DNA from: an uncultured Bacilli bacterium | GTDB lineage: Bacteria; Bacillota_I; Bacilli_A; RF39; UBA660 | Assembly: GCA_947589735.1 (NCBI GenBank) | Contig: CANQCR010000007.1 | Coordinates: forward strand, 988-64,987 | Length of the DNA stretch: 64,000 bases | Direction of reading: 5' to 3' | In this document: positions 27,499-51,122 of the stretch, piece after piece | How the letters are laid out: the number at the start of each line of letters is the position of its first letter | Numbering within the stretch: position 1 is the first letter of the stretch | Notes under the pieces: generated by a model | Told to the model about the DNA's origin: nothing | Databases searched by the model: none | The model's input: the letters and a program-made list of their open reading frames with translations, nothing else | Made by a program: the position numbers and the translations under genes

Positions 27499-30020
27499 AT
27501 ACGAAATATAACCATTTAGAAGTTGAAAAAGGCAAATACGAAGATTGGAAAGAAAAGGGCTACTTTGAAAGTGGTGATTTAAGTAAAAAACCATATTGTA
27601 TTGTTATCCCACCACCTAATGTAACCGGTAAACTTCACCTAGGCCATGCTTGGGACACAACTCTTCAAGATATCCTTATTCGTTATAAAAGAATGGATGG
27701 CTATGATGCTTTATGGGTTCCTGGTATGGATCACGCCGCTATTGCGACAGAAGCTAAAGTTGTTCAAAAGCTTCGCCAAAATGGTGTTGACAAATATGAA
27801 TTAGGACGCGATGGCTTTTTGGATGCTTGCTGGGATTGGACCCATGAATACGCTAAAAATATAAGAGAGCAATGGGCTAAACTAGGTCTTAGTCTCGATT
27901 ACCGCAAGGAAGCTTTTACCCTTGATGAAAACTTGACGAGAGCTGTTAAAAAGGTCTTTGTTGATCTTTATAACGAGGGACTAATTTATCGTGGCGAGCG
28001 GATTATTAACTGGGATCCCGTTGCTAAAACAGCATTATCAAATGAGGAAGTTATTTATAAAGATGATGAGGGAGCATTCTATCATTTAAAATATTTTATT
28101 GAAGGAACTGATGAATACTTGGATGTTGCGACAACTCGTCCTGAAACTTTATTTGGTGATACCGCTGTTGCTGTTAATCCTGATGATGAACGTTATAAAC
28201 ATCTTATCGGTAAAAAAGCTATTTTACCAGTTGTCAATAAAGCTATACCTATTGTTGGTGATGAACATGCTGATCCTACCTTTGGAACTGGTGTTGTTAA
28301 AATAACGCCAGCTCATGATCCTAACGATTTTGAAGTTGGTAATAGACACAATTTAGAGCGTATTGTCGTTATGAATGAGGATGCGACAATGAATGCGAAT
28401 GCCTTAAAGTATGAGGGTATGACAAGAGAAGAATGTAGGGAAGCTCTCCTTAAAGACTTAGAAGAAGCAGGCCTTTTAATCAGTGTTGAAAAAATGGTTC
28501 ATAGTGTTGGTCATAGTGAAAGAACTGACGCTGTGGTTGAACCATATTTATCAAAGCAATGGTTTGTTAAGATGCGGCCACTCGCTGATCGTGTTTTAGA
28601 AAATCAAAAAAATAAGAAGACGAAAGTAAACTTTGTCCCACCACACTATGAAAAGACGATGAATCACTGGATGGAGATAACTTATGATTGGTGTATTTCC
28701 CGCCAATTATGGTGGGGTCACCGGATTCCTGCTTGGTATAAAGGGGACGAAGTATACGTTGGCGTTGATGCGCCATCTGGTGATGGTTGGGTTCAAGATA
28801 ATGATGTTTTAGATACCTGGTTTAGTAGTGCTTTATGGCCATTTGCTACTTTAGGTTGGCCAAATGAAACAGATGATTATAAAAGATATTATCCTAACAG
28901 TGTTTTAGTTACGGGTTATGATATCATTCCTTTTTGGGTTAATAGAATGACTTTCCAAGGCTTGAAGTTTACGGATTCTCGTCCTTTTAAAGATTGCTTA
29001 ATTCACGGTCTTATTCGTGATAAAGAGGGACGCAAGATGAGTAAGTCTTTAGGTAATGGTGTCGATCCTATGGATGTCATTGATGAATATGGTTGTGATG
29101 CCTTAAGATTTTTCTTAACAACTAATTCCGCTCCGGGAGCTGATTTAAGATATGATGAAGAAAAAGTTAAATCATCTTGGAACTTCCTTAATAAGTTATG
29201 GAATGCCTCACGTTTTGTTTTAATGAATCTTGAAGACTTTAAGGAAGAAGATTATACTTTGGATAATTTATCACTTGCCGATAAATGGATTTTAAATCGT
29301 TTAAATAATGTTATTAAAGAAGTAAGAAAAAATATGGATACATATGATTTCCACAACGTTGGTAATACTTTATATGCCTTTATTTGGAATGATTTTTGTG
29401 ATTGGTATATTGAGCTATCAAAAAGTGATATGTCCAAAACAAATAAGAGTGTTTTGCTTTTAGTTTTAACAGATATTATGAAGATGCTACATCCATTCAC
29501 GCCTTATATAACAGAAGAAATCTATCAAATGTTACCAATTAAGGAACAACCATCTATTATGATATCTTCATATCCTAGCATTCGTGATTTTGATTATCAA
29601 AAAGAAGAAGACAAGTTAAATAAGATTTTAGAAGATATTATCGCTATTCGTAATTTAAAAGCGACAAACAATATTACCAAACAAGCTAAGGTAAAATATG
29701 TAACTGATGCTAGTATTGAAAATATTTACCGTTCGCAGTTAAAAATCAAAGATGAAAATATTTTAACGGATAGCGGTGATAACTATTTAACGAGCAATTA
29801 TAAATCTAAAAATATTGATATTACATATTACTATGAAGGAACTAAAGAAGATGATAGTAAGAAAGATGATGAAATCAAGAAGTTAGAAGAGTCTATCGCT
29901 CGCAGGGAGAAACTTTTAAGTAATGAAAATTACGTTTCTAAAGCACCAGCGCAAATTGTCGATGCTGATAGAAAAAAACTAGCTGAAGAAAAAGAGCGTT
30001 TAGCGCTTCTTAAGGGTTAA
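27492..30020 (+). CDS. valS: Valyl-tRNA synthetase
   Basis: [14 protein letters not shown] (HIGH), KMSKSLGN (KMSKS) and a C-terminal coiled coil. 842 aa. Confidence 0.96.
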
Positions 30021-30021
30021 G

Positions 30022-30378
30022 ATGTTATTTCTTTATTATCCGAAATGTTCAACTTGTAAGCGCGCTAAAGCGTGGCTAGATAATCATCATCTTTCTTATG
30101 ATTCTCGTGATATCATTTTAGATAATCCTAAATATGCAGAATTAGAAAAATGGATAAAAGATAGTGGCGTAGATGTAAAACGTTTCTTTAATACCAGTGG
30201 TCTAAAATATAAAGAATTAGGCTTAAAAGATAAGTTAAGTGGGTTATCTTTGGAAGAGAAGATTAAACTTTTGTCAAGTGATGGTATGCTTGTCAAAAGA
30301 CCTCTTATAATTGGCGATAATATTACCTTAGTGGGTTTTAATGAAAAGGAGTGGGAGAAAGCATTATGCAAGAATTAA
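30022..30378 (+). CDS. ArsC/Spx/MgsR-family protein (YffB-like)
   Basis: 118 aa. N-terminal YYPKCSTCKRAKAWL and C-terminal LVKRPLI, typical of the ArsC family. Confidence 0.75.
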   Translation: MLFLYYPKCSTCKRAKAWLDNHHLSYDSRDIILDNPKYAELEKWIKDSGVDVKRFFNTSGLKYKELGLKDKLSGLSLEEKIKLLSSDGMLVKRPLIIGDNITLVGFNEKEWEKALCKN

Positions 30379-30731
30379 AATTGAAAAAATGTTTAAAATG
30401 TCATAGAATTGTCAAGATAATAAATGGTAGTTGCCCTATTATGTGTTGCAAAGAAGAAATGGTTGACGTTATAGCTAATAGTGTCGATGCTGCTTTTGAA
30501 AAGCATATTCCCCAATATGAAGTTATTGACGGAGAAATGCATATTAGTGTTAATCATGTTATGGAAGATGATCACTATATTGAATGGATTTTAGTTAAGT
30601 ATGCAGGTGGCAGTATTGAAAAATATTATCAGCCTGGTGATGAACCTACTTTAGTCGCTCCATATGAAAAAGGTGCTACTATCTATAGTTATTGTAATAA
30701 ACATGAATTATGGCAAAAAGAAGTAGAATAA
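30366..30731 (+). CDS. dfx: Desulfoferrodoxin (superoxide reductase)
   Basis: N-terminal CxxC…CC desulforedoxin-like centre (CLKCHRIV…IMCC). The EKHIP, H..ED.HYIEWI and CNKHELW motifs match the neelaredoxin iron site. Confidence 0.85.
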   Translation: MQELKLKKCLKCHRIVKIINGSCPIMCCKEEMVDVIANSVDAAFEKHIPQYEVIDGEMHISVNHVMEDDHYIEWILVKYAGGSIEKYYQPGDEPTLVAPYEKGATIYSYCNKHELWQKEVE

Positions 30732-30795
30732 AAAAGTTAAAAATCCTTTTTTATTCTTTTTTTTGACTGGCAATAAATGGTATAATAATAATTGA

Positions 30796-32787
<1,992 letters not shown>

Positions 32788-32818
32788 TATATTATATGTA
32801 GTATTTGGATGTGATTTA

Positions 32819-35014
32819 ATGCAAGAATGGAATGGTTTTAAAGGAACCAAATGGCAACAAGTAATTGATGTTGAGGATTTTATTTTAAATAATTATCAAG
32901 AATATACCGGTAGTTCGGATTTCTTAAAGGGAATTAGCAAGAAAACGACAAGATTATTGAGCCGTGTCTCTAAAATTCTTGGCAAGGAAGAAATTACGGG
33001 TATTTTGGATGTTGAAACATCAGCTTTAACGAGCATTGATGCTTTTGATCTTGGATATATTGATAAAAAAAATGAAGTTATCAGTGGTATTCAGACTGAT
33101 GATCCTTTAAAACAGGCTGTTAATACTCTTACATTGGATACCTCTCTTAATGTACTTAAAAATAATGGCTATCGTTTTGACCGTGAAGTGTTAGAACATT
33201 ATCGAGATTTTAATGATACGTACGAAGCAAGTCTTAATGAGGCCTACACTAAAGAAATTGCAAAGTTTAAAGAGGTTCACTTATTAGAGGGAATGCCTGA
33301 TACTTATGGTCGTGGTTTTATGATTGGCGATTATCGCCGGTTACCATTATATGGCCTTGATTATTTAATTGCTAAAAAAGAGCATGATTTAAATCGTTTA
33401 AGAAAAGATATCAATTATTCAATGATTCGAGCTCGTGAAGAGGTTATTAAACAGATAAAGTCCTTAAAAAAATTAAAATTGTTAGCATCAAGATATGGCT
33501 TTGATATCTCACGTCCAGCAAGTAATGCGAAAGAAGCTTTTCAATGGCTATATTTTGCTTATCTTGCCGTTAGTAAAGAAACGTGTGGAGCTTCTATGCC
33601 TATTGGCAATAATAGTGCATTTTTAGATATATACATTGCTAGAGATTTAGAATTAGGCATTTTAAATGAAGAAGAAGCCCAAGAATTAGTTGATCAATTT
33701 ATGTTAAAACTACGTTTAATCAGATGTGTTCGTAGTGATGATTTTAAAACAATTTTTATGGGTCAAAATACACTTGTTACTGAGACGATTGGTGGCGTTA
33801 ATAAGGAGCACTCAATTATAACTAAAACAGCTTATCGTTTCTTAAATACCATTGAGACATTAGGTGTTTATCCTACTCCAGCTTTTGCTATTTTATGGTC
33901 TGTTAAGATGCCTAATAATTTTAAAAGATATTTAGCTAAAGTAATGATGAAACATAATTGTTTACGATTTATTAATGCGGATAATCTAGGCAGTAGCAAT
34001 TATGCTACAAATGGTTTAGTAAGTACTTCAAAAATAGGTAAACAAATCGATTATTATGGCGGTAGTTTTAATCTTCCTAAGGCTTTGCTTTATGCCATTA
34101 ATGGGGGATGTGATGAGTTAACAGGCGAACTTGTTATCGATGGTGTAGAAAAATTAGATGGTGATGTTTTAGTTTATTCTAAGGTTGTTCGTAATTTCGC
34201 TATCGTCTTAAAAAAATTAATCACTATTTATGCGGATAATTTGAATATGATTCATTATATGCATGATAAATATGGCTATGAAAGTTCACTTATGGCATTT
34301 AATGATACTGTTGTTGAACGTTATATGACATTTAATATTGCTGGTTTTGCTACCCTTGTGGATTCTTTGTCAGCTATCCGGTTTGCTAAAGTAAAAGTTA
34401 ATCGTGATGAGAATGGTTTAAGCACCGATTTTACCATCACTGGTGATTTTCCACATTATGGAAATAATCTTGATGATGTCGATAAATTGGCTAGTGATAT
34501 TGCTAAACTTATCAATAGGGAATTATCCGGTCATCATTTGTATCGTAATGCTAATATTAAGCTTGGTTTTCAAAGCCTTGGCATGAGTATTAAGTATGGG
34601 TCAAATACCGGTTCAACACCAGATGGCCGTTTTAGGGGTAGTGCATATCCTTTTAACGCTGATCCTGTTGGTAATAAAAATACAAGGGGATTGCTTCGGA
34701 CTTTAAAAAGTGTAATGAAAATACCAAGTAAATTATGTAGTGGCGGTATTGCTACGACAGTCAATATTACCGCTTTAGCGCTTGGTAGTAAAAGAACGGA
34801 ACGTGCTGAAAATCTAATCAGTCTTTTAGATGGCTATTTTAAACAAAACGGTAGTGAACTTGAAATTAATATCATTGATAAAAAGACTATCCAGGATAAT
34901 GATAAGACAAAGGATATAGTGTTATGCGTTGGAGGAATTGTTACGCGTCAGAATGCTTTACCAGATACTTCAAAAGAATATTTACTTGACCTAACATATA
35001 ATACAAAATTATGA
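32819..35014 (+). CDS. Pyruvate formate-lyase (glycyl radical enzyme) homolog lacking the catalytic Cys-Cys; probable pseudoenzyme
   Basis: Collinear with PflB over the full length (YGRGFMIGDYRR, GKQIDYYGGSFNLPKALLYAINGG, HYMHDKYGYE, TGSTPDGR). ACCVSP is replaced by NGLVST, and RVSGY by CVGGI. Confidence 0.8.
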   Translation: MQEWNGFKGTKWQQVIDVEDFILNNYQEYTGSSDFLKGISKKTTRLLSRVSKILGKEEITGILDVETSALTSIDAFDLGYIDKKNEVISGIQTDDPLKQAVNTLTLDTSLNVLKNNGYRFDREVLEHYRDFNDTYEASLNEAYTKEIAKFKEVHLLEGMPDTYGRGFMIGDYRRLPLYGLDYLIAKKEHDLNRLRKDINYSMIRAREEVIKQIKSLKKLKLLASRYGFDISRPASNAKEAFQWLYFAYLAVSKETCGASMPIGNNSAFLDIYIARDLELGILNEEEAQELVDQFMLKLRLIRCVRSDDFKTIFMGQNTLVTETIGGVNKEHSIITKTAYRFLNTIETLGVYPTPAFAILWSVKMPNNFKRYLAKVMMKHNCLRFINADNLGSSNYATNGLVSTSKIGKQIDYYGGSFNLPKALLYAINGGCDELTGELVIDGVEKLDGDVLVYSKVVRNFAIVLKKLITIYADNLNMIHYMHDKYGYESSLMAFNDTVVERYMTFNIAGFATLVDSLSAIRFAKVKVNRDENGLSTDFTITGDFPHYGNNLDDVDKLASDIAKLINRELSGHHLYRNANIKLGFQSLGMSIKYGSNTGSTPDGRFRGSAYPFNADPVGNKNTRGLLRTLKSVMKIPSKLCSGGIATTVNITALALGSKRTERAENLISLLDGYFKQNGSELEINIIDKKTIQDNDKTKDIVLCVGGIVTRQNALPDTSKEYLLDLTYNTKL

Positions 35015-35556
35015 TAGGAAAAATTAGTTCAATTGATCCTATGTCTTTTAATAGTGGCCCAGGTATTAGATTTGTCATCATGGTGGATGAGGTTGAGAAT
35101 ATTACACTAACGCCACAAAATACGATTGATAGAATTAGAAAGTTTCGACCATATTTTGGGCCAGATGATGGAGGATTAACATTTAAAGGTAAAAATATTT
35201 TTCAAGAGATAGATTATATCAATGAGACTTGCCATATTGCTCATAAAGCTGGCATTACGACTTGTCTTATGACGAATGGACATAATTATGAGAAAAATCG
35301 TGTCCAATTTAGAGATATTGACTTTGTTATACTAGAAATTTCTAGTATACCGTTATATAATTATGGTAAGTTAGATGATAAAACATTTGACCGAATGGAA
35401 ATGTTAATTATGGACACATTAGCTAATGGTAAGAAAGTCTTTTTCTATCCTAGTCTTGATGGTGGTATCATTGATAAAGATGATTACGTTAGAAAATTAA
35501 AAAAATATGCCCATAGTTTTAGTTCAGAAATTGAAGTTAAAATAAGTGATACATAA
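35011..35556 (+). CDS. PFL-activating-enzyme homolog lacking the radical-SAM CX3CX2C motif; probable pseudoenzyme
   Basis: GPGIRF, GGLTFKG and GITTCLMTNG align to PflA. The cluster-binding segment (…GCLMRCLYCHN…) is replaced by IMVDEVENITLTPQN, with no Cys. The protein is only 181 aa. Its ATG overlaps the upstream TGA (ATGA). Confidence 0.75.
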   Translation: MIGKISSIDPMSFNSGPGIRFVIMVDEVENITLTPQNTIDRIRKFRPYFGPDDGGLTFKGKNIFQEIDYINETCHIAHKAGITTCLMTNGHNYEKNRVQFRDIDFVILEISSIPLYNYGKLDDKTFDRMEMLIMDTLANGKKVFFYPSLDGGIIDKDDYVRKLKKYAHSFSSEIEVKISDT

Positions 35557-35566
35557 AAAGGAGGAT

Positions 35567-36652
35567 ATGATGAAAAGGAAATATAAAATAATGGCTGCCA
35601 TTTATTTTGTTATTATGGCTCTTGTTCTTTTTCAAAGTGATAATGTTAAAATGTTTGCAACAGCCTTAGATTATATCGCTTGTGGTAGCGCTACAGGCAT
35701 ACCTAAACCTATTCCTCAAGTAATAACAATTGCTTATACACTTCTTATGGTTGGAGCACCGATCGTTTTGGTTGTATCATCAATTATGACTTTAATTAAG
35801 TCAATTGCTGATAGTGATCAAGAAAAAACAGTAAAAGCTAGGAATAATTTGTTTCGAAAAGCAGCTCTAGCGGTTTTAATATTTCTAACAGCGTCAATTG
35901 TACGTTTTGCTCTTGACAAAGTAGCTAGTACAGCCAGTGATAAAAGCACGCTTGCTAAATGTCTTAATTGCTTTGTTGCCTTTAATGGACGCGATTGCAA
36001 AAAATCTAGCAGTGGATCAGAAACAGAACAAGGAACGTATAATGAAACATATAGTAATGTTGCTCAAGCAGGTTTAGGAACAGGAAAACCTAAAGGAACG
36101 AGAACTATTTTGATAGGTGATTCAAGAACAGTTGGAATTTGTGGTATAGACTCATCTGCTGAAACATCTGTACAAAAATGCCGAGATGTTTTGGCAATTA
36201 GAAAAGGCGCAATGGGTTATTATTGGTTTAGAGATACTGCCGTACCAGCCGTTACCAAACAGCTTAATGAGCATCCGCAAACAGTTTATAATATTGTTAT
36301 TTTAATGGGAGCAAATGATTGTGGAAAAATTAAACATCATATGGCGGAAAGTAGAGCAAATTCATACATAGATAAATTAGAAGAATTGGCCGATGGTGAT
36401 TGGAAGAATCATAGTATTGTGTTTGTGTCAGTTGGTCCAATAAAAGTTGAAGCTACTGAATATATGGATAGGACTAGTCTCAACAAATTTAATTCAACAA
36501 TCGAAAAAAGAATAAAAGATAGTAAAAAAAGAAATCTTTTCTGGTGTGATATTCGTGATAAAGTTAATTGGGAATATGGTGACACAGTACACTACTCTAT
36601 ACCAAATGGTGTAAAGGCTCATTATGACGGAGTTATGAACTATTGTTTATAA
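35567..36652 (+). CDS. Paralog A: signal peptide plus two-helix membrane module plus Cys motif, fused to an SGNH/GDSL hydrolase domain
   Basis: AGGAGG at 35559-35564, ATG at 35567 or 35570. The N-module is shared with 36720-37169 and 37262-38341. C-terminal SGNH blocks: LIGDSRT (I), KGAMGY (II), LMGANDCG (III), GDTVHY (V). Confidence 0.8.
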   Translation: MMKRKYKIMAAIYFVIMALVLFQSDNVKMFATALDYIACGSATGIPKPIPQVITIAYTLLMVGAPIVLVVSSIMTLIKSIADSDQEKTVKARNNLFRKAALAVLIFLTASIVRFALDKVASTASDKSTLAKCLNCFVAFNGRDCKKSSSGSETEQGTYNETYSNVAQAGLGTGKPKGTRTILIGDSRTVGICGIDSSAETSVQKCRDVLAIRKGAMGYYWFRDTAVPAVTKQLNEHPQTVYNIVILMGANDCGKIKHHMAESRANSYIDKLEELADGDWKNHSIVFVSVGPIKVEATEYMDRTSLNKFNSTIEKRIKDSKKRNLFWCDIRDKVNWEYGDTVHYSIPNGVKAHYDGVMNYCL

Positions 36653-36676
36653 AAAGGTATATAATTATACCTTTTT
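36653..36676 (+). terminator. Rho-independent terminator after paralog A
   Basis: AAAGGTATA-taat-TATACCTTT followed by TT. A close copy of the module occurs after paralog C. Confidence 0.65.
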
Positions 36677-36677
36677 G

Positions 36678-36686
36678 TGTTATAAT
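36678..36686 (+). promoter_or_regulatory. Extended -10 promoter element TGTTATAAT for paralog B
   Basis: An exact TGnTATAAT match immediately after the terminator. It belongs to a terminator-promoter module also found at 38343-38378. Confidence 0.5.
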
Positions 36687-36719
36687 TGTATTAAGATATA
36701 GAATATGGTTGTGATTTAT

Positions 36720-37169
36720 ATGAAATATAATAGACTAACAAAAGTTGCCTTTATGCTATTTGCATTATTCATTTTATTAGCAGTAAAATCGAATGTTTAT
36801 GCACTTGATTATGTCGCTTGTGGTAGTGCAACAGGAATTCCTAAACCCCTTCCTCAAATGACAACGATTGCGTATACTTTCTTAATTGTTGGAGCTCCAG
36901 TTGTTCTTATCATATCGGCAGTGATAACTTTAATAAAAGCTAATGCTAGTGGAAATCCTGATAATATCTTAAAAGCTAAAGACAAATTGTTTAAGAAATT
37001 TATTCTAACAGGTTTTATTTTCCTAATTGCCGGTGTTGTACAATTTGCCATAACTAGAGTTACTAGTACAAATTCTGATAAAGCAACTGTTGGAAAATGT
37101 ATGAGTTGTTTTTTATATTTTTCTAATTGCAATGATTCAGATTCTGGTAATGATGTTTTTGATGGGTAA
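36720..37169 (+). CDS. Paralog B: N-terminal membrane module only (headless copy)
   Basis: VYALDYVACGSATGIPKPLPQ, two hydrophobic helices separated by KAKDKLFKKF, and CMSCFLYFSNC. It ends shortly after the Cys motif. Confidence 0.75.
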   Translation: MKYNRLTKVAFMLFALFILLAVKSNVYALDYVACGSATGIPKPLPQMTTIAYTFLIVGAPVVLIISAVITLIKANASGNPDNILKAKDKLFKKFILTGFIFLIAGVVQFAITRVTSTNSDKATVGKCMSCFLYFSNCNDSDSGNDVFDG

Positions 37170-37261
37170 TTTACAAAACTTTTTACTTATGATTATTATT
37201 TTTTTCATGATATTTAATTTGTATATTTTACAATTAGTTTTAATTATATAGTGTGGTGAAT

Positions 37262-38341
37262 ATGAGAAAAAAGAAAAATTTAACGTTTGGGGCATTTTTA
37301 GTTATATGTAGTGCTTTATTGATTTGTAATATTGATAACGTTTATGCTATTGACTATGTCGCTTGTGGTAGTGCAACAGGAATTCCAAAGCCTGTTCCAC
37401 AATTAATAACAATTTTATATACCATCCTTATGGTAGGAACACCTATTGTTCTTATCGTGTTTTCAATAATTACTTTGATAAAAGCAGTCTTAAGTGATAA
37501 TCCTGATAATGTTCTTAAAGCTAGAGGGAAATTGTTTAAAAAGTTTATTATTGCGGCAGTTATCTTTTTAACTTCTGGTCTTGTAAGGTTTGTTATAACA
37601 CGTGTAACAAGCAATAGTAAAGATACTAATACCGTTGGAGAATGTTTAAGTTGCTTCTTATATTTTGAAAATTGCGGAAAGTCAAACAGTGGAATTGAAG
37701 TTGAACAGGGAACTTATGGCGAAGCATATAGTAATGTAGCTTATGCAGGTGATGGTAGCGGTAATGCCTTAACACCAGAGCAAGTTGAGGAAGAACTTCG
37801 AAAAATGAAAAAAGCTCCAACTTATAGTGAATTGTTAGAGCTTGCTAAAAAGAATTATAAAATGGATGAATCTGTTTTTAAAATAGTATTTGGTTGGGCT
37901 ATTAATGAAGGTTATGATAGCGCAGTGAATCTTGAAGGTAAAGTTGATCATTATCTAGGATATTTGTGTGATTGTATAGGTATAAACTTATATATGGGTT
38001 TAGATAGTGTAAACTCTGCTTATACACTTGTTGAAGAAATCCGTGGTGGTGGCCCTAGAGACTTATATAATGTAGATCGTATATCAGCAAAGGCCGATGC
38101 TGCAATAAGTAATCCAAGTGATTATGCAGCACAATATAAAGGAATGTATTTGGCATTAAAATATCCTGATGAAAATGTACATAATTGTTACGGTCCAACG
38201 CAAAGCGAACAAAACTTCTATGCCAAAATGGGAGGAAAAGTATATTACCAAGGTAAGGCATATCCATCTGCTCCACATTATCCAATTCAAATATGGACAC
38301 AATGGTACACGGGAATAAAAAACTGGAAAAAAGACAAATAA
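37262..38341 (+). CDS. Paralog C: the same membrane module fused to an unrecognised C-terminal domain of about 190 aa
   Basis: VYAIDYVACGSATGIPKPVPQ, KARGKLFKKF loop, CLSCFLYFENC. The linker EQGTYGEAYSNVAYAG is shared with paralog A. I recognise no motif in the C-terminal domain. Confidence 0.75.
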   Translation: MRKKKNLTFGAFLVICSALLICNIDNVYAIDYVACGSATGIPKPVPQLITILYTILMVGTPIVLIVFSIITLIKAVLSDNPDNVLKARGKLFKKFIIAAVIFLTSGLVRFVITRVTSNSKDTNTVGECLSCFLYFENCGKSNSGIEVEQGTYGEAYSNVAYAGDGSGNALTPEQVEEELRKMKKAPTYSELLELAKKNYKMDESVFKIVFGWAINEGYDSAVNLEGKVDHYLGYLCDCIGINLYMGLDSVNSAYTLVEEIRGGGPRDLYNVDRISAKADAAISNPSDYAAQYKGMYLALKYPDENVHNCYGPTQSEQNFYAKMGGKVYYQGKAYPSAPHYPIQIWTQWYTGIKNWKKDK

Positions 38342-38342
38342 A

Positions 38343-38368
38343 AAAGGTATATTTTATATCTTTTTTTT
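38343..38368 (+). terminator. Terminator after paralog C (weaker copy of the 36653 hairpin)
   Basis: AGGTATA-ttt-TATATCT (one G.U pair) followed by T8. Confidence 0.5.
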
Positions 38369-38369
38369 A

Positions 38370-38378
38370 TGTTATAAT
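38370..38378 (+). promoter_or_regulatory. Extended -10 promoter element TGTTATAAT for nifJ
   Basis: An exact TGnTATAAT match, followed by GTGGTGAT and the ATG at 38394. Confidence 0.55.
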
Positions 38379-38393
38379 TGATGTGGTGATAAC

Positions 38394-41300
38394 ATGAAAA
38401 AGAAAATGACAGTTGATGGTAATGAAGCCTGCAGTTATACCGCATATATGTTTACAGAAGTAGCCGGTATTTACCCTATAACACCATCTAGTCCGATGGC
38501 TGAACACGTTGATGAGATGAGTGACCAAAGATTAAATCTTTTCAATAGTCATGTCAAAGTCGTTGAGATGCAAAGTGAAGCAGGTGCAGCAGGATTTGTT
38601 CATGGCTCTTTAAAAGCAGGATGTTTAACAACGACATTTACGGCTAGTCAAGGTCTTCTTTTAATGATTCCTAATATGTATAAAATAGCTGGGGAAATGT
38701 TACCTTGTGTTATCCATGTAGCAGCAAGAAGTCTATCGACGCATGCTCTAAGTATTTTTGGCGATCATCAAGATATATATGCATGCCGGGCAACAGGTTT
38801 TGCTATGTTAGCTTCTTCATCTGTTCAAGATGCTGCTTATTTAAGTGCGGTTGCCCACTTATCAAGTATTAAAGCAAGTCTACCTTTTATGCATTTCTTT
38901 GATGGCTTTAGAACAAGTCATGAGATTCAAAAGATAGATGTGTTACAAGCTTCCGATTATGCTGATATGCTAGATTATGATGCTTTAAATAAATTCCGTA
39001 ATCGAGCTTTAAATCCGCATCACCCTCTAACTTATGGAACAGCTCAAAATGAAGATATTTACTTTCAAGTAACAGAAGCACGAAATAAGTATTATGATGC
39101 TCTACCTGATATCGTTAATGATTATATGGAAAAAATTAATGCTAAAGCAGAAACATCCTATAAGCCATTTAATTATTATGGTGGCGTTAATGCTACCAAG
39201 GTTATTGTAGCGATGGGATCTGTTTGTGAAACAATTAAAGAAGTTATTAAAGATAATAATAATCTAGGTCTTATTGAAGTTCATTTATATCGCCCATTTA
39301 GTACTAAATACTTACTAAATGTATTACCAAAGACGGTTAAGAATATCGCTGTTTTAGATCGAACAAAAGAAGCAGGTAGTAATGGTGAACCACTATATCT
39401 AGATATTGTTAATGCCTTAAAAGGAAAAGATATAAACATTGTTGGTGGCCGTTATGGATTATCAAGTAAAAATACAACCCCAGCTGATATCAATGCCGTA
39501 TATCATATGCTAGATAATCCTGTTAATAATTTTACAATTGGTATTGTTGATGATGTAACTAATTTAAGTCTAAAACCTATCCCAATTGAAACAGAAAAAA
39601 GTAGTGAATGGCTATTATATGGTTATGGTAGTGACGGTATGGTTGGTGCTTCTAAATCAATTATTAAATTAATTGGCGATAATACCGATGATTATGTTCA
39701 AGGATATTTCCAATATGATTCGAAAAAAAGTGGCGGTGTTACATGTAGTCATTTACGGTTTAGTCCTAATCCTATTCATTCGGCTTATTATGTTTCTAAA
39801 CCATCATTAGTTGTTATTTCTAAAGATAGTTATTTAGAGGAATACGATTTATTAGAGGATTTAGATGAAGGTGCTAAAGTCATTATCAATTCGATTCATA
39901 GTGCTGATGAAGTTGATGCGATGTTAAATCATCATTTAAGGAAGTTATTTATTGATAAGAAAGCTAAAGTATATTTGATCAATGCCTATGATTTAGCTGA
40001 TCAAGTAGGATTAAAGGGTAAAATTAGTACCATTATGGAAAGCGCTATTATGCGACTAACGGATATTTTACCTTATGATGTCGCTTTAGATAAAATGAAA
40101 GATGGCATTGATAAGAAATTTGCTCGTAAGGGTGATAGTGTTGTTAAAGCTAATTATGAAGCTATTACTTTAGTTAGTGAAAATCTATTGCCAGTAACTA
40201 TCAGTTCATATGATGCTACTTCTAACGATGAAGCATTATCACTTGTTAAAACGATTATGAAACGTAAAGGTGATACTTTAAAGACATCTGATTTTGTTAA
40301 TCGGGCTGATGGTGCTTTTGAAAGTGGAACAAGCGCTACTGAGAAAAGATATATCACTTCTTTAACGCCATCATGGATTAAGGAAAATTGTTCTAATTGT
40401 AATCAATGTTCTTTATATTGTCCACATGGTGTGATTAGACCTTTCTTATTAGATGAAGAAGAGTATAAGCAGGCTCCAGAAGAGATTCAAAAGCGATGCG
40501 TTAAAGCTATCGGTATGAATTATTATTATATTGTTAGTGTATGTGTAGCTAATTGTACTGGCTGTGGGGTATGTGTTAATAATTGCCCAGGTATGCGTTC
40601 TAATAAGGCTCTTATTATGGATAAGATAAATCCTAAAGAACAAGATATATTTGAATATCTAGATAACAATATTAAGCCAAAACCAATTGATAATATTTAT
40701 ACGACGAAAAATAGTCAATTTGTTAAGCCTAAATTTGCCTTTTCAGGGGCTTGCGCTGGATGTGGAGAACCAGCTTATATCAAGTTATTAACCCAATTAT
40801 TTGGTGAACACTTGATTATTGCTAATGCGACTGGCTGTTCATCAATCTATGGTGGTAGTGCGCCTTCAACTCCTTATACTGTTCCTTGGGCTAGTAGTTT
40901 ATTTGAAGATAATGCTGAATATGGTTATGGTATGCTTGTTGCTAATAATATTATGCGGAAGCGTATTGCTAGCTTGATGGAACAAAATATGGATAATGAA
41001 AATAGTGCCTTATTTAAAAAATGGTTAGACAATCCTGAAAGTTATGAAAATACTAAAGAAGTTTATGACAATCTAACCGATAATCTACCACAAGAATTAT
41101 TAGAATTAAAAGATTATATAACCACTCGTAATATTTGGTGTATCGGTGGGGATGGTTGGGCTTATGATATCGGCTTTAGTGGTATTGACCATGTCCTTGC
41201 AAGTTCTGATAATATCAAAATTTTAGTTTTAGATAGTCAAGTATATTCTAATACGGGTGGCCAATCATCTAAAGCTAGTCCAAAAGGCGCTATCGCATCA

Positions 41301-50099: not shown

Positions 50100-51122
50100 A
50101 TGAAAAATATATATGGGGTAACGATTAAGGAACTGGAAGACTACTTTACTGCTAAGGGTGAAGGTAAGTTTAAAGCTACCCAAGTATTTGAATGGTTATA
50201 TAAAAAAAGAATCACTTCTTTTTCTAATATGCGCAATGTAAGTAAAAAAACGATGCAAGATTTAGCTAATGATTTTGTTATAGAACCTTTAGAAATAATT
50301 ACAAAAAAAAGTGATGTTGACGTTGTTAAATATCTTTTTCATTTAAGTGATGATAATAAAATTGAAGCAGTTTTAATGAAACATGATTATGGCAATAGTT
50401 TATGTATTTCAACCCAAGTTGGTTGCAATATGGGATGTCACTTTTGTGAAAGTGGTCGTTTAAAAAAGGTTCGTAATCTTGAAGTGTCCGAAATGGTAAG
50501 ACAAATATTAGCTGTTGAAGCTGATTTAAACATTCGTATCTCGCATCTTGTTTTAATGGGCATTGGCGAACCTTTTGACAATTATGATAATGTTATATCA
50601 TTCATTGATATCATTAATACACCTAAAGGACTTGATTTGGGAAGCCGTCACATTACTATATCAACGTGTGGCATTGTCCCAAAGATTGAAACTTTTATGA
50701 AGTATGATAAACAAGTTAACTTAGCCATTTCTCTTCATGCTCCTAATAATGAAATACGTTCAAGCATCATGGAGATTAATAAGGCTTATCCTTTAGAAAA
50801 ACTAATTCCTACTATAAAAAAGTATGTTGAGGTAACTAAAAGACGTGTAACTTTTGAATATATAATGTTAAAAGGAGTTAACGATAGTGTTCAAGATGCT
50901 AATGAATTAAGTGATTTATTAAGGGGCATTAATTGTTACGTCAATTTAATACCTTATAATGAAACAAGTCATATTGAGTATAAAAAGAGCAGTCAAGAAC
51001 AAATTATGAAGTTTTTTGACACATTGAAAAAAAGGGGCATAAACGTTACGATTCGTCGTGAATTTGGCAGCAAAGTTAATGCTGCTTGTGGACAATTAAG
51101 ATCAAATTACGAGGAGGCTTAA
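50100..51122 (+). CDS. rlmN: 23S rRNA/tRNA (adenine-C2)-methyltransferase RlmN (radical SAM)
   Basis: CNMGCHFCESG (CX3CX2C), MGIGEP, and the C-terminal catalytic Cys context AACGQL. Confidence 0.93.
   Translation: MKNIYGVTIKELEDYFTAKGEGKFKATQVFEWLYKKRITSFSNMRNVSKKTMQDLANDFVIEPLEIITKKSDVDVVKYLFHLSDDNKIEAVLMKHDYGNSLCISTQVGCNMGCHFCESGRLKKVRNLEVSEMVRQILAVEADLNIRISHLVLMGIGEPFDNYDNVISFIDIINTPKGLDLGSRHITISTCGIVPKIETFMKYDKQVNLAISLHAPNNEIRSSIMEINKAYPLEKLIPTIKKYVEVTKRRVTFEYIMLKGVNDSVQDANELSDLLRGINCYVNLIPYNETSHIEYKKSSQEQIMKFFDTLKKRGINVTIRREFGSKVNAACGQLRSNYEEA

What the first reader, a model, noticed from the sequence alone, without database searches (positions are those of the whole stretch)
35011..35556. 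PFL-activase homolog that has lost the radical-SAM iron-sulfur motif
The 181-aa product aligns to PflA at GPGIRF, GG.T..G and GI.TCL.TNG. In PflA the segment following GPGIRF carries C29-x3-C33-x2-C36. Here that segment reads VIMVDEVENITLTPQN and has no cysteine. The protein is also about 60 aa shorter than PflA. A glycyl radical enzyme and its activase that have both lost catalytic residues, yet remain an intact overlapping gene pair (ATGA at 35011-35014), looks like co-evolution toward a non-catalytic function.
Basis: partly seen in the sequence, partly recalled or inferred. Interest (0 to 1): 0.65.

Follow-up and report, generated by a model that had tools for sequence, protein, structure and literature searches.

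The report
Dead pyruvate formate-lyase and activase pair
In a group of uncultured gut Bacilli, the oxygen-sensitive radical enzyme pyruvate formate-lyase and its activating enzyme have both lost every part needed for radical chemistry, yet selection keeps them as an intact, tightly coupled gene pair, so they must now do something else that is still unknown.

Summary
ORF 35011-35556 encodes a 181-aa PflA homologue with the PflA fold. A clean 16-residue deletion has removed the CX3CX2C iron-sulfur loop. Only two cysteines remain and the GGE SAM motif reads GKN.

The upstream 731-aa PFL homologue has lost the Cys-Cys pair, both pyruvate-binding arginines and the RVxG[FWY] fingerprint. It keeps the radical glycine itself.

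The dead pair sits at the same ligA-...-nifJ locus where sister lineages carry a fully canonical pflB-pflA pair. It forms one monophyletic clade: 37 PFL-like and about 33 activase-like 90%-identity clusters, from rabbit, ruminant and other gut metagenomes. It evolves about 4 times faster than its live sister clade. Even so, every ORF examined in 13 lineages is open, and dN/dS is about 0.14-0.15.

Every dead locus with downstream sequence carries a pilin-like membrane-anchor gene immediately after the pair. Its ribosome-binding site is often embedded in the activase-like gene's last codons.

The activase-like protein is progressively shortened (198, 181, 171, 127, 105 aa), and some lineages keep an N-terminal stump without any PFL-like gene.

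The function is unknown. I found no description in the literature. Whole-genome tools were shut, and neither expression nor complex formation could be tested.

The parts
32819..35014 (+). PFL-like pseudoenzyme gene (731 aa), an orthologous replacement of pflB
   Evidence: Pfam PFL-like 8.6e-127 plus Gly_radical 4.7e-11. TIGR01255 scores 711 bits, below its 994.2 cutoff. It is collinear with solved PFLs. The AF2 model has pLDDT 84.7 and pTM 0.88.
34013..34018 (+). Codons G399-L400, at the position of catalytic Cys418-Cys419 of PFL
   Evidence: Alignment to canonical relatives: YAISCCVSAM against YATNGLVSTS. All 37 dead-clade clusters lack the Cys-Cys pair.
34925..34939 (+). Degenerate glycine finger C703-V-G-G706-I707, which is RVSGY in live PFL. 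G706 is the Gly734 equivalent and is retained.
   Evidence: G706 is invariant in 26 of 26 clade members. The model shows a beta-hairpin, E701-704 and E707-710, with GG at the turn.
35011..35556 (+). Cluster-less PflA-like gene (181 aa)
   Evidence: TIGR02493 scores 57 bits against a 231.75 cutoff, with no Radical_SAM hit. The AF2 model has pLDDT 88.1, and the best PDB match is PflA 3cb8 at TM 0.79.
35011..35014 (+). ATGA stop/start overlap of the two genes
   Evidence: The overlap or near-overlap is conserved in other loci, with a Shine-Dalgarno sequence (GAGGT) inside the PFL C-terminal codons HEV.
35053..35070 (+). Codons S15-G-P-G-I-R20, the retained loop A motif of GRE activases (DGPGIR in PflA)
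   Evidence: G16, P17, G18, I19 and R20 are invariant in the family. Loop A is the element that closes on the PFL peptide in 3CB8 (PMC10267522, read).
35071..35118 (+). Residues 21-36 (FVIMVDEVENITLTPQ), spanning the scar of the 16-residue deletion that removed CX3CX2C
   Evidence: Alignments with canonical PflAs from the same locus in sister lineages.
35188..35196 (+). Codons G60-K61-N62 at the position of the GGE SAM-binding motif
   Evidence: The canonical sisters read SGGE, while the family reads [KT]G.. at these positions.
35559..36652 (+). RBS AGGAGG (35559-35564) and pilin-like membrane-anchor gene (paralog A, SGNH-type head), the third gene of the conserved unit
   Evidence: An anchor gene lies directly downstream of the activase-like gene in all 12 dead loci that have downstream sequence. 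The gap is mostly 1-12 nt (34 and 52 nt in two loci). The Pfam Lipase_GDSL_2 match is weak.
32900..32920 (.). Approximate recombination breakpoint relative to the near-identical genome L001
   Evidence: Nucleotide identity to L001 is 92-100% (mostly 95-99%) per 150-nt bin up to about 32910 and about 79% after it. dS jumps from 0.11 in ligA to 0.94-1.18 in the pair.

Best explanation
SHOWN:
- The 181-aa protein is a descendant of the PFL-activating enzyme PflA that can no longer bind a [4Fe-4S] cluster. The loop was deleted and only two Cys are left. It has also lost the GGE SAM motif and about 40 C-terminal residues.
- Its partner is a full-length PFL that has lost the thiyl-radical cysteines, both pyruvate-binding arginines and the activase-recognition fingerprint. 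Radical catalysis by this pair is therefore impossible.
- The pair is the ortholog, not a spare paralog, of a canonical pflB-pflA pair that sister lineages still carry between ligA and nifJ.
- The loss happened once. Since then both genes have evolved about 4 times faster, but still under purifying selection.

INFERRED (my best mechanism, about 40% for this step):
- The activase-like protein survives as a cofactor-less binding subunit. Its most conserved parts are loop A (GPGIR), which in PflA closes over the PFL glycine loop, and the following beta1-alpha1-beta2 segment (RIRKFRPYFG..GG.TF).
- The PFL-like protein keeps a glycine finger with a new clade-specific consensus, RN[SG]G[YC]. The two proteins probably still dock as activase and substrate do, forming a stable non-radical complex. 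The remodelled, arginine-free barrel pocket then serves a binding, regulatory or new non-radical role.
- The complex is made together with, and possibly works with, the pilin-like membrane protein whose gene is translationally coupled to the 3' end of the pair.
For: Loss of catalytic parts. Only 4 of 22 family members give even a weak Radical_SAM hit.

Fold kept: TM 0.79-0.80 to PflA 3cb8/3c8f; PFL-like pLDDT 84.7, with both finger hairpins modelled.

Orthologous locus: ligA-PFL-AE-(anchor)-nifJ synteny in window, L001-L015 and L022, with canonical pairs in L008, L009, L013 and L022.

Single origin and acceleration: the dead clade is monophyletic with support 0.999. Tip depth is 1.11 against 0.25 for the canonical sister. 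Canonical PFL is more conserved than ligA (0.72 against 0.57), whereas dead PFL is less conserved than ligA (0.55-0.67 against 0.75-0.83).

Selection: omega is 0.14 (PFL-like) and 0.15 (AE-like) for window against L001 at dS about 1. The live L008-L013 pair gives 0.10 and 0.18. All ORFs are open in 13 lineages.

No mixed states: 37 dead clusters lose both Cys-Cys and RVxG[FWY], and 82 live clusters keep both.

Docking elements kept: GPGIR is invariant, and residues 41-60 show 0.93 mean conservation. G706 is invariant, and the RN[SG]G[YC] consensus is visible. The role of loop A comes from PMC10267522.

Coupling to the anchor gene.

The organism still makes ordinary radical-SAM enzymes: RlmN at 50100-51122 hits Radical_SAM at 2.5e-20.
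Against: - No experiment or complex model supports docking. AlphaFold-Multimer was not available.
- The glycine-finger flanks are much more variable than in live GREs. In the window and L001 the finger reads C/N-V-G-G-I, which argues that activase-type recognition has relaxed.
- The activase-like protein shrinks stepwise (198, 181, 171, 127-131 aa). In L019/L020, L021 and L018 it exists without an adjacent PFL-like gene, so it either has a PFL-independent role or is on its way out.
- The co-evolution signal is weak and confounded by linkage.
- Expression is unproven. No RNA runs were found, and the two runs labelled 'RNA?' have flat, DNA-like depth.
- I could not check whether the same genomes hold a second, live pfl/pflA elsewhere, because the genome tools were shut.
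Confidence: 0.6

Rival explanations
1. Neo-enzyme. The PFL-like barrel has evolved a new, non-radical catalytic activity in its remodelled pocket. The activase-like protein is only an accessory or structural subunit.
For: The former active site is not merely degraded but re-fixed to new residues that are conserved across the clade: GRGF, T[NT]G[LMI], IGKQIDYYGG with a new Asp and two Tyr, and PDGRF. omega is as low as in live PFL.
Against: I know of no precedent for non-radical catalysis in the GRE fold. No obvious catalytic dyad or triad is conserved. The fourfold rate acceleration suggests looser constraint than is typical for a central enzyme.
Confidence: 0.15
2. Slowly decaying relics. The two ORFs are kept open mainly because the downstream pilin-like anchor gene depends on their promoter and on translational coupling, not because the proteins themselves do anything.
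For: - The anchor gene follows within 1-12 nt in most loci, and its Shine-Dalgarno sequence lies inside the last codons (KEV-stop) of the activase-like gene.
- The activase-like protein is progressively truncated, and PFL-like has been deleted in L019/L020.
- The rate is about 4 times faster.
Against: Coupling alone would protect reading frames but not amino-acid sequences. Yet omega is 0.14-0.15, 20 AE-like and more than 130 PFL-like positions are invariant, and no stop or frameshift appears in 13 lineages at saturated dS.
Confidence: 0.15
3. The activase-like protein works independently of the PFL-like protein. Its N-terminal module of about 105 residues (loop A, beta1-alpha1-beta2-alpha2-beta3) would be a small stand-alone protein, and adjacency to PFL-like would be only historical.
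For: - Stumps of 105-131 aa keep exactly this module.
- Orphans sit next to ligA without PFL (L019/L020), or in unrelated contexts (L021 beside an ATP-grasp gene, L018 beside ThiF).
- Residues 1-118 are more conserved than 119-181 (0.72 against 0.57).
Against: In the main clade the pairing is found in all 13 lineages and the two genes overlap. The orphans are few, lie on short contigs, and may be late stages of loss.
Confidence: 0.07
4. Still a radical system. G706 would be activated in trans by another radical-SAM activase, with the 181-aa protein acting as an adaptor, and the PFL-like would act like a spare-part glycyl-radical carrier.
For: The radical glycine is invariant. Cys-less PFL variants can still receive a glycyl radical in vivo (PMC12338860 abstract, listed). 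Non-glycine radical enzymes show that the family is more flexible than once thought (PMC11528403).
Against: - The RVxG[FWY] recognition fingerprint is gone.
- No thiyl cysteine exists to use a radical.
- The substrate arginines are gone.
- No live activase is at the locus.
- The known aminoacyl-radical enzymes keep the Cys and a live activase.
Confidence: 0.03

Closest known systems
Pyruvate formate-lyase activating enzyme PflA (E. coli; PDB 3C8F/3CB8; NCBIfam TIGR02493)
   Same: It has the same partial TIM-barrel fold (Foldseek TM 0.79-0.80) and the same N-terminal loop A motif GPGIR. The GG.T and GI.TC..T.G blocks match. The gene lies immediately after, and overlaps, the GRE gene.
   Different: It has no CX3CX2C loop (a 16-residue deletion) and only two Cys. 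GGE is replaced by GKN, and about 40 C-terminal residues are missing. It scores 57 bits against a 231.75 cutoff and gives no Radical_SAM Pfam hit.
Pyruvate formate-lyase PflB (E. coli 1H16 and others; TIGR01255)
   Same: The partner protein is collinear over its whole length with E 1e-161 to 1e-175. It has the PFL-like and Gly_radical domains, both finger hairpins are predicted, and the radical glycine is kept.
   Different: Cys418/Cys419 become Gly/Leu, Arg176 becomes Phe, Arg435 becomes Ser, and RVSGY becomes CVGGI. It scores below the equivalog cutoff (711 against 994.2).
Canonical pflB-pflA pairs of sister uncultured Bacilli at the same ligA-nifJ locus (loci L008, L009, L013, L022)
   Same: They are orthologous by synteny. 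They share the lineage-specific DRIRKFRPYF block, and the Shine-Dalgarno sequence lies inside the PFL C-terminal codons in the same way.
   Different: These keep CC, RVSGYAV, CPLRCxFCHNPD and GGE. In L008 the activase gene is followed directly by nifJ, with no pilin-like anchor gene in between.
Aminoacyl radical enzymes (Ala/Ser/Thr in place of the radical Gly; PMC11528403)
   Same: They are non-canonical members of the GRE family that were found in metagenome-assembled genomes.
   Different: Those lose the Gly but keep the catalytic Cys and a live activase, and they are active radical enzymes. Here it is the reverse: the Gly is kept, and the Cys and the activase cofactor sites are lost.
Catalytically dead NrdD (class III RNR) paralogues noted elsewhere in this scan
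   Same: They are another GRE family in which radical-dead but selected copies recur in gut anaerobes. These are AI notes, unchecked here.
   Different: Those keep a known ligand-sensing domain (the ATP-cone), are mostly extra paralogues, and sit beside live activases. Here the only copy at the locus and its activase are both dead, and no sensing domain is evident.

Membership tests
Radical SAM superfamily / GRE-activating enzymes (PF04055, TIGR02493 PflA) | CX3CX2C motif ligating the [4Fe-4S] cluster | tested here: not met
   A 16-residue deletion covers the motif. Only C74 and C85 remain in the protein. The same deletion is present in all family members.
Radical SAM superfamily / GRE-activating enzymes (PF04055, TIGR02493 PflA) | GGE motif binding the amino group of SAM | tested here: not met
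   The aligned positions read G60-K61-N62, while the canonical sisters read GGE. The role of the motif comes from PMC10267522.
Radical SAM superfamily / GRE-activating enzymes (PF04055, TIGR02493 PflA) | Score above the curated family cutoffs | tested here: not met
   TIGR02493 scores 57 bits against 231.75. PF04055 gives no hit for the window protein and weak hits for 4 of 22 members.
Radical SAM superfamily / GRE-activating enzymes (PF04055, TIGR02493 PflA) | Partial (beta/alpha)6 TIM-barrel fold of PflA | tested here: met
   The AF2 model has pLDDT 88.1. Foldseek gives 3cb8 at E 1.2e-9 with TMq 0.79. The C-terminal part of the barrel is shortened.
Radical SAM superfamily / GRE-activating enzymes (PF04055, TIGR02493 PflA) | GRE-activase-specific N-terminal loop A motif (DGxGxR) and a gene adjacent to a GRE gene | tested here: met
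   SGPGIR is present, with G, P, G, I and R invariant. The gene overlaps the PFL-like gene in ATGA.
Radical SAM superfamily / GRE-activating enzymes (PF04055, TIGR02493 PflA) | Reductive cleavage of SAM and glycyl-radical installation | not testable with these tools
   This needs purified protein, EPR and a SAM-cleavage assay. From the sequence it is predicted to be impossible.
Glycyl radical enzymes / formate C-acetyltransferase (PF02901+PF01228, TIGR01255) | C-terminal fingerprint RVxG[FWY] with the radical glycine | tested here: not met
   The motif reads CVGGI. The glycine itself (G706) is kept and is invariant in the clade.
Glycyl radical enzymes / formate C-acetyltransferase (PF02901+PF01228, TIGR01255) | Thiyl-radical cysteine(s) on the Cys loop (C418/C419 in PFL) | tested here: not met
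   The positions are G399-L400. All 37 dead-clade clusters lack the Cys-Cys pair.
Glycyl radical enzymes / formate C-acetyltransferase (PF02901+PF01228, TIGR01255) | Pyruvate-binding Arg176 and Arg435 | tested here: not met
   The aligned residues are F167 and S416. The residue roles come from my knowledge of the PFL structures, not from a tool.
Glycyl radical enzymes / formate C-acetyltransferase (PF02901+PF01228, TIGR01255) | Ten-stranded barrel fold with Gly and Cys finger loops; domain-level Pfam hits | tested here: met
   PF02901 hits at 8.6e-127 and PF01228 at 4.7e-11. PDB PFLs match at E 1e-161 to 1e-175. The AF2 model has pTM 0.88. The equivalog cutoff is not reached (711 against 994.2).

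The most novel reading that the evidence does not exclude
The dead PFL, the dead activase and the pilin-like membrane anchor would form one exapted three-gene cassette. The two former enzymes would serve as the cytoplasmic partner of the surface-displayed anchor proteins, as scaffold, chaperone or gate. The cassette would spread among related gut Bacilli by homologous recombination between the conserved ligA and nifJ flanks, replacing the live pflB-pflA pair. That would be the first radical-SAM/GRE pair recruited, without its cofactors, into a cell-envelope function.
Probability: 0.15. Interest if true: 0.8.

Novelty: new variant of a known kind. Interest (0 to 1): 0.58.

Why it matters
Glycyl radical enzymes and their radical-SAM activases are treated as obligate catalytic pairs. 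Genome pipelines and metabolic reconstructions call any PFL homologue 'formate C-acetyltransferase'.

Here a whole clade of gut Bacilli carries, at the orthologous locus, a pair in which both proteins have lost their chemistry but are still kept by selection. This has three consequences:

1. Formate and acetyl-CoA production by PFL should not be inferred for these organisms. Pyruvate is presumably handled by the adjacent PFOR.
2. I found no description of a cluster-less radical-SAM activase retained together with its dead substrate protein. It offers a natural experiment on what activase-GRE recognition can be reused for.
3. The live and dead versions sit at the same locus in sister lineages. 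This gives a clean comparative system for testing how pseudoenzymes arise and what constrains them.

Tried and rejected
- Whole-genome search for a second, live pfl/pflA, focA or other GREs: the genome search and the fetch from genomes were shut, so this was not done.
- Expression: no RNA run holds the window pair. For the relative L004, two runs guessed to be RNA gave flat depth of about 14x over 10 kb and contigs up to 105 kb, which is DNA-like, so they give no evidence of transcription.
- Promoter and terminator scan of 30000-38600: no more sites than in shuffles, so it was uninformative.
- Alternative Cys triad: many family members have C74-x2-C77-x7-C85. However, C77 is Ala in the window and L001, and C74/C77 are missing in L003. 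The second and third positions are also Cys in the canonical sister PflAs. I rejected it as a cluster site.
- Relic-only reading: rejected as the main explanation because of omega 0.14-0.15 and open frames in all lineages.
- dN/dS for most other pairs is unreliable because dS is saturated (pS 0.5-0.6). I used only window-L001 and L008-L013.
- Mirror-tree co-evolution: weak (partial r 0.32, p about 0.05) and confounded by linkage.
- The ligA tree as a species proxy is incongruent with the PFL and AE trees. L011, L015 and L019 fall near lineages that carry the canonical pair. ligA borders a recombining segment, so vertical versus horizontal spread of the cassette stays unresolved.
- Literature: searches for pseudoenzyme PFL, cluster-less radical SAM and PFL in RF39/RFN20 Bacilli found nothing describing this pair. 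Vey et al. 2008 is not held.
- Database names: the clusters carry no names in any source.
Full report
**1. The observation**

The window has an ORF at 35011-35556 (181 aa). Its ATG overlaps the TGA of a 731-aa ORF at 32819-35014. The 181-aa protein is a true but very divergent PflA homologue:
- NCBIfam TIGR02493 (PFLA) scores 57 bits (E 1.8e-15) against a cutoff of 231.75. The match is in two stretches that skip the cluster-loop positions.
- Pfam Radical_SAM gives no hit.
- phmmer against the PDB finds only E. coli PflA (3c8f, 8fo0). Residues 2-23 align to PflA 3-24 (IGKISS...GPGIRF) and residues 34-113 to PflA 51-133, so PflA residues 25-50, which carry C29/C33/C36, have no counterpart.
- The protein has two cysteines in all, C74 and C85. 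From memory of the PflA mutagenesis literature, they fall at or near the two non-ligand cysteines C94 and C102 of E. coli PflA.
- An AlphaFold2 model built on 22 family members is confident (pLDDT 88.1, pTM 0.85). Its best structural matches are PflA 3cb8/3c8f (TM 0.79-0.80, E 1e-9).

**2. The partner**

The 731-aa protein is collinear with solved PFLs (E 1e-161 to 1e-175) and has the PFL-like and Gly_radical Pfam domains. It falls below the formate C-acetyltransferase equivalog cutoff (711 against 994.2 bits). I aligned it to canonical relatives from the same locus in sister lineages, which gave these changes:
- YAISCCVSAM becomes YATNGLVSTS, so Cys418/419 become G399/L400.
- GRGR becomes GRGF, so the Arg176 equivalent becomes F167.
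- FFGARCN becomes YYGGSFN, so Arg435 becomes S416.
- IRVSGYAV becomes LCVGGIVT.

The radical glycine itself (G706) is kept and is invariant in 26 of 26 clade members. A model (pLDDT 84.7, pTM 0.88) still shows both finger hairpins.

**3. How widespread it is and where it comes from**

A search of 5.8 billion proteins found 33 activase-like clusters of 170-200 aa, all without the Cys loop. A profile search of 1.8 billion representatives shows that the family is narrow: 5 representatives score below 1e-30, and canonical PflAs begin at about 1e-25.

Among the 120 best relatives of the PFL-like C-terminal half, 37 clusters lack both Cys-Cys and RVxG[FWY], 82 have both, and none is mixed. The only exception is one probable error (RVSVY).

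Loci fetched from genome and metagenome collections come from uncultured Bacilli MAGs of rabbit gut, sheep rumen and other guts. In every case the genes lie between ligA and the PFOR gene nifJ. Four loci at this same position carry a fully canonical pair with RVSGYAV, CC, CPLRCxFCHNPD and GGE: L008, L009, L013 and L022. The dead pair is therefore the ortholog of a live pair.

In a maximum-likelihood tree the dead PFL-likes form one clade (support 0.999). Its sister is the canonical L008/L013 group. Mean tip depth is 1.11 against 0.25 substitutions per site, a 4.4-fold acceleration. The activase-like proteins share the same deletion boundaries and also form one clade. The exception is L018, which groups with a canonical PflA and may be an independent loss.

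**4. Selection**

- Live PFL is more conserved than ligA (0.72 against 0.57 identity for L008-L009). Dead PFL is less conserved than ligA (0.55-0.67 against 0.75-0.83), and the activase-like protein less still (0.38-0.61).
- All PFL-like and activase-like frames are open in 13 lineages, even though synonymous sites are saturated.
- For the one unsaturated dead pair (window against L001), omega is 0.14 for PFL-like and 0.15 for activase-like. For the live pair L008-L013 it is 0.10 and 0.18.
- Twenty activase-like and more than 130 PFL-like positions are invariant.

These are working proteins, not pseudogenes.

**5. Anatomy of what is kept**

In the activase-like family the N-terminal 118 residues are more conserved than the rest (0.72 against 0.57). 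The peak is at residues 41-60, RIRKFRPYFG..GG.TF (0.93), and GPGIR is invariant. GPGIR belongs to loop A, the element that closes over the PFL peptide in the PflA-peptide structure (PMC10267522).

The C-terminal part is being lost stepwise:
- 198 aa in most lineages
- 181 aa here
- 171 aa in L007
- 127-131 aa in the early-branching L014/L015 lineage, which still has a 735-aa dead PFL-like
- 105-108 aa in L019/L020 and L021

In L019/L020 the stump directly follows ligA and the PFL-like gene is gone. L021 and L018 are in unrelated contexts.

On the PFL-like side, the glycine finger has a new consensus, RN[SG]G[YC]. The pocket residues are re-fixed rather than random: GRGF, T[NT]G[LMI], IGKQIDYYGG.

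**6. A third gene**

All 12 dead loci that have downstream sequence carry a gene for a small two-helix, pilin-like membrane anchor directly after the activase-like gene. The anchor often bears an extracellular head. In six loci the gap is 1-2 nt, and the Shine-Dalgarno sequence (AAAGAGGTG, AAGGAGG) is formed by the activase-like protein's last codons (...KEV-stop). In the window the gap is 10 nt and contains AGGAGG. In canonical L008 the activase gene is followed directly by nifJ. In canonical L022 it is followed, after 178 nt, by a type-IV-pilin-like gene.

**7. Recombination**

The window and L001 are 92-100% (mostly 95-99%) identical per 150-nt bin from valS to about 90 nt inside the PFL-like gene. 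They are about 79% identical from about position 32910 through the pair, and lower still in the anchor genes. dS rises from 0.11 in ligA to 0.94-1.18 in the pair. The pair-plus-anchor segment has therefore been exchanged between strains by homologous recombination. Trees of the flanking ligA are not congruent with the PFL and activase trees. Whether the cassette spread vertically or horizontally is open.

**8. Interpretation**

Shown:
- Radical chemistry is impossible for this pair.
- The pair is orthologous to a live pair.
- The loss happened once.
- Both genes remain under purifying selection.
- Both genes are tightly coupled to a membrane-anchor gene.
- The organism has not given up radical-SAM biochemistry in general, because RlmN at 50100-51122 is normal.

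Inferred: the activase-like protein persists as a cofactor-less binding subunit that still docks on the glycine finger through loop A. The complex would have a binding, regulatory or new non-radical role, possibly connected with the anchor. I give the overall reading 0.6 and the docking step about 0.4.

Rivals are a neo-enzyme (0.15), relics held by operon coupling (0.15), a PFL-independent role for the N-terminal module (0.07) and a trans-activated radical carrier (0.03).

**9. Comparison with what is known**

The 2026 GRE review and the aminoacyl-radical-enzyme paper mention no Cys-less GRE paired with a cluster-less activase. Full-text searches for pseudoenzyme PFL or cluster-less radical SAM found nothing relevant. 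Other AI notes of this scan report radical-dead NrdD paralogues. Those are a parallel in another GRE family, unchecked here. I class this pair as a new variant of a known kind.

**10. Limits**

- The genome-wide tools were shut.
- There is no evidence of expression.
- No multimer modelling was possible.
- The roles assigned to Arg176 and Arg435 and to PflA C94 and C102 come from my own knowledge of the literature.

Noticed in passing
window 32900-36700 compared with L001: There is a sharp recombination breakpoint. Nucleotide identity to the near-identical genome L001 falls from 92-100% (mostly 95-99%) per 150-nt bin to about 79% roughly 90 nt inside the PFL-like gene, and to 50-60% in the anchor genes. 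dS is 0.11 in ligA and 0.94-1.18 in the pair.
   Followed up: partly
L019:4925-5242, L020:1146-1463, L021:245-571, L018:2064-2543: These are orphan cluster-less activase-like stumps (105-159 aa) with no PFL-like gene. In L019/L020 the stump overlaps the end of ligA and is followed by a type-IV-pilin-like LamG protein. L018 groups with a canonical PflA in the tree and may be an independent loss of the Cys loop.
   Followed up: partly
L003, L004, L005, L010, L011, L012: last 12 nt of the activase-like gene; window 35559-35564: The Shine-Dalgarno sequence of the downstream pilin-like anchor gene is built from the activase-like protein's conserved final codons (K-E-V-stop, AAAGAGGTG). Only 1-2 nt separate the stop from the ATG. 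Part of the C-terminal conservation may therefore be at the nucleotide level.
   Followed up: partly
L022:9126-9662 and L019:5284-6030: Type-IV-pilin-like proteins (N-terminal KGFTL[IV]E motif) lie downstream of a canonical pair (L022) and of an orphan stump (L019). The slot after the activase gene seems to attract surface or pilin-like genes of two unrelated kinds.
   Followed up: no
window 30022-30378 and 30351-30731: An ArsC/Spx-family gene overlaps by 28 nt a 126-aa desulfoferrodoxin-family gene with an N-terminal Cys-rich segment. The second gene is 98-99% identical in L001 but only 48% identical in L003.
   Followed up: no
window 50100-51122: This is an ordinary RlmN-type radical SAM enzyme (Radical_SAM 2.5e-20). 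Fe-S and radical-SAM biochemistry are therefore intact in this organism.
   Followed up: no
protein P0301: An otherwise canonical PFL has RVSVY in place of RVSGY, a Gly-to-Val change at the radical position. It is a single-contig cluster and may be a sequencing error or a recent knockout.
   Followed up: no
runs X11, X12 laid on L004:1700-12534: These runs were guessed to be RNA, but depth is flat at about 14x across ligA, the pair, the anchor and nifJ, and contigs reach 105 kb. They behave like DNA metagenomes and should not be used as expression evidence.
   Followed up: yes
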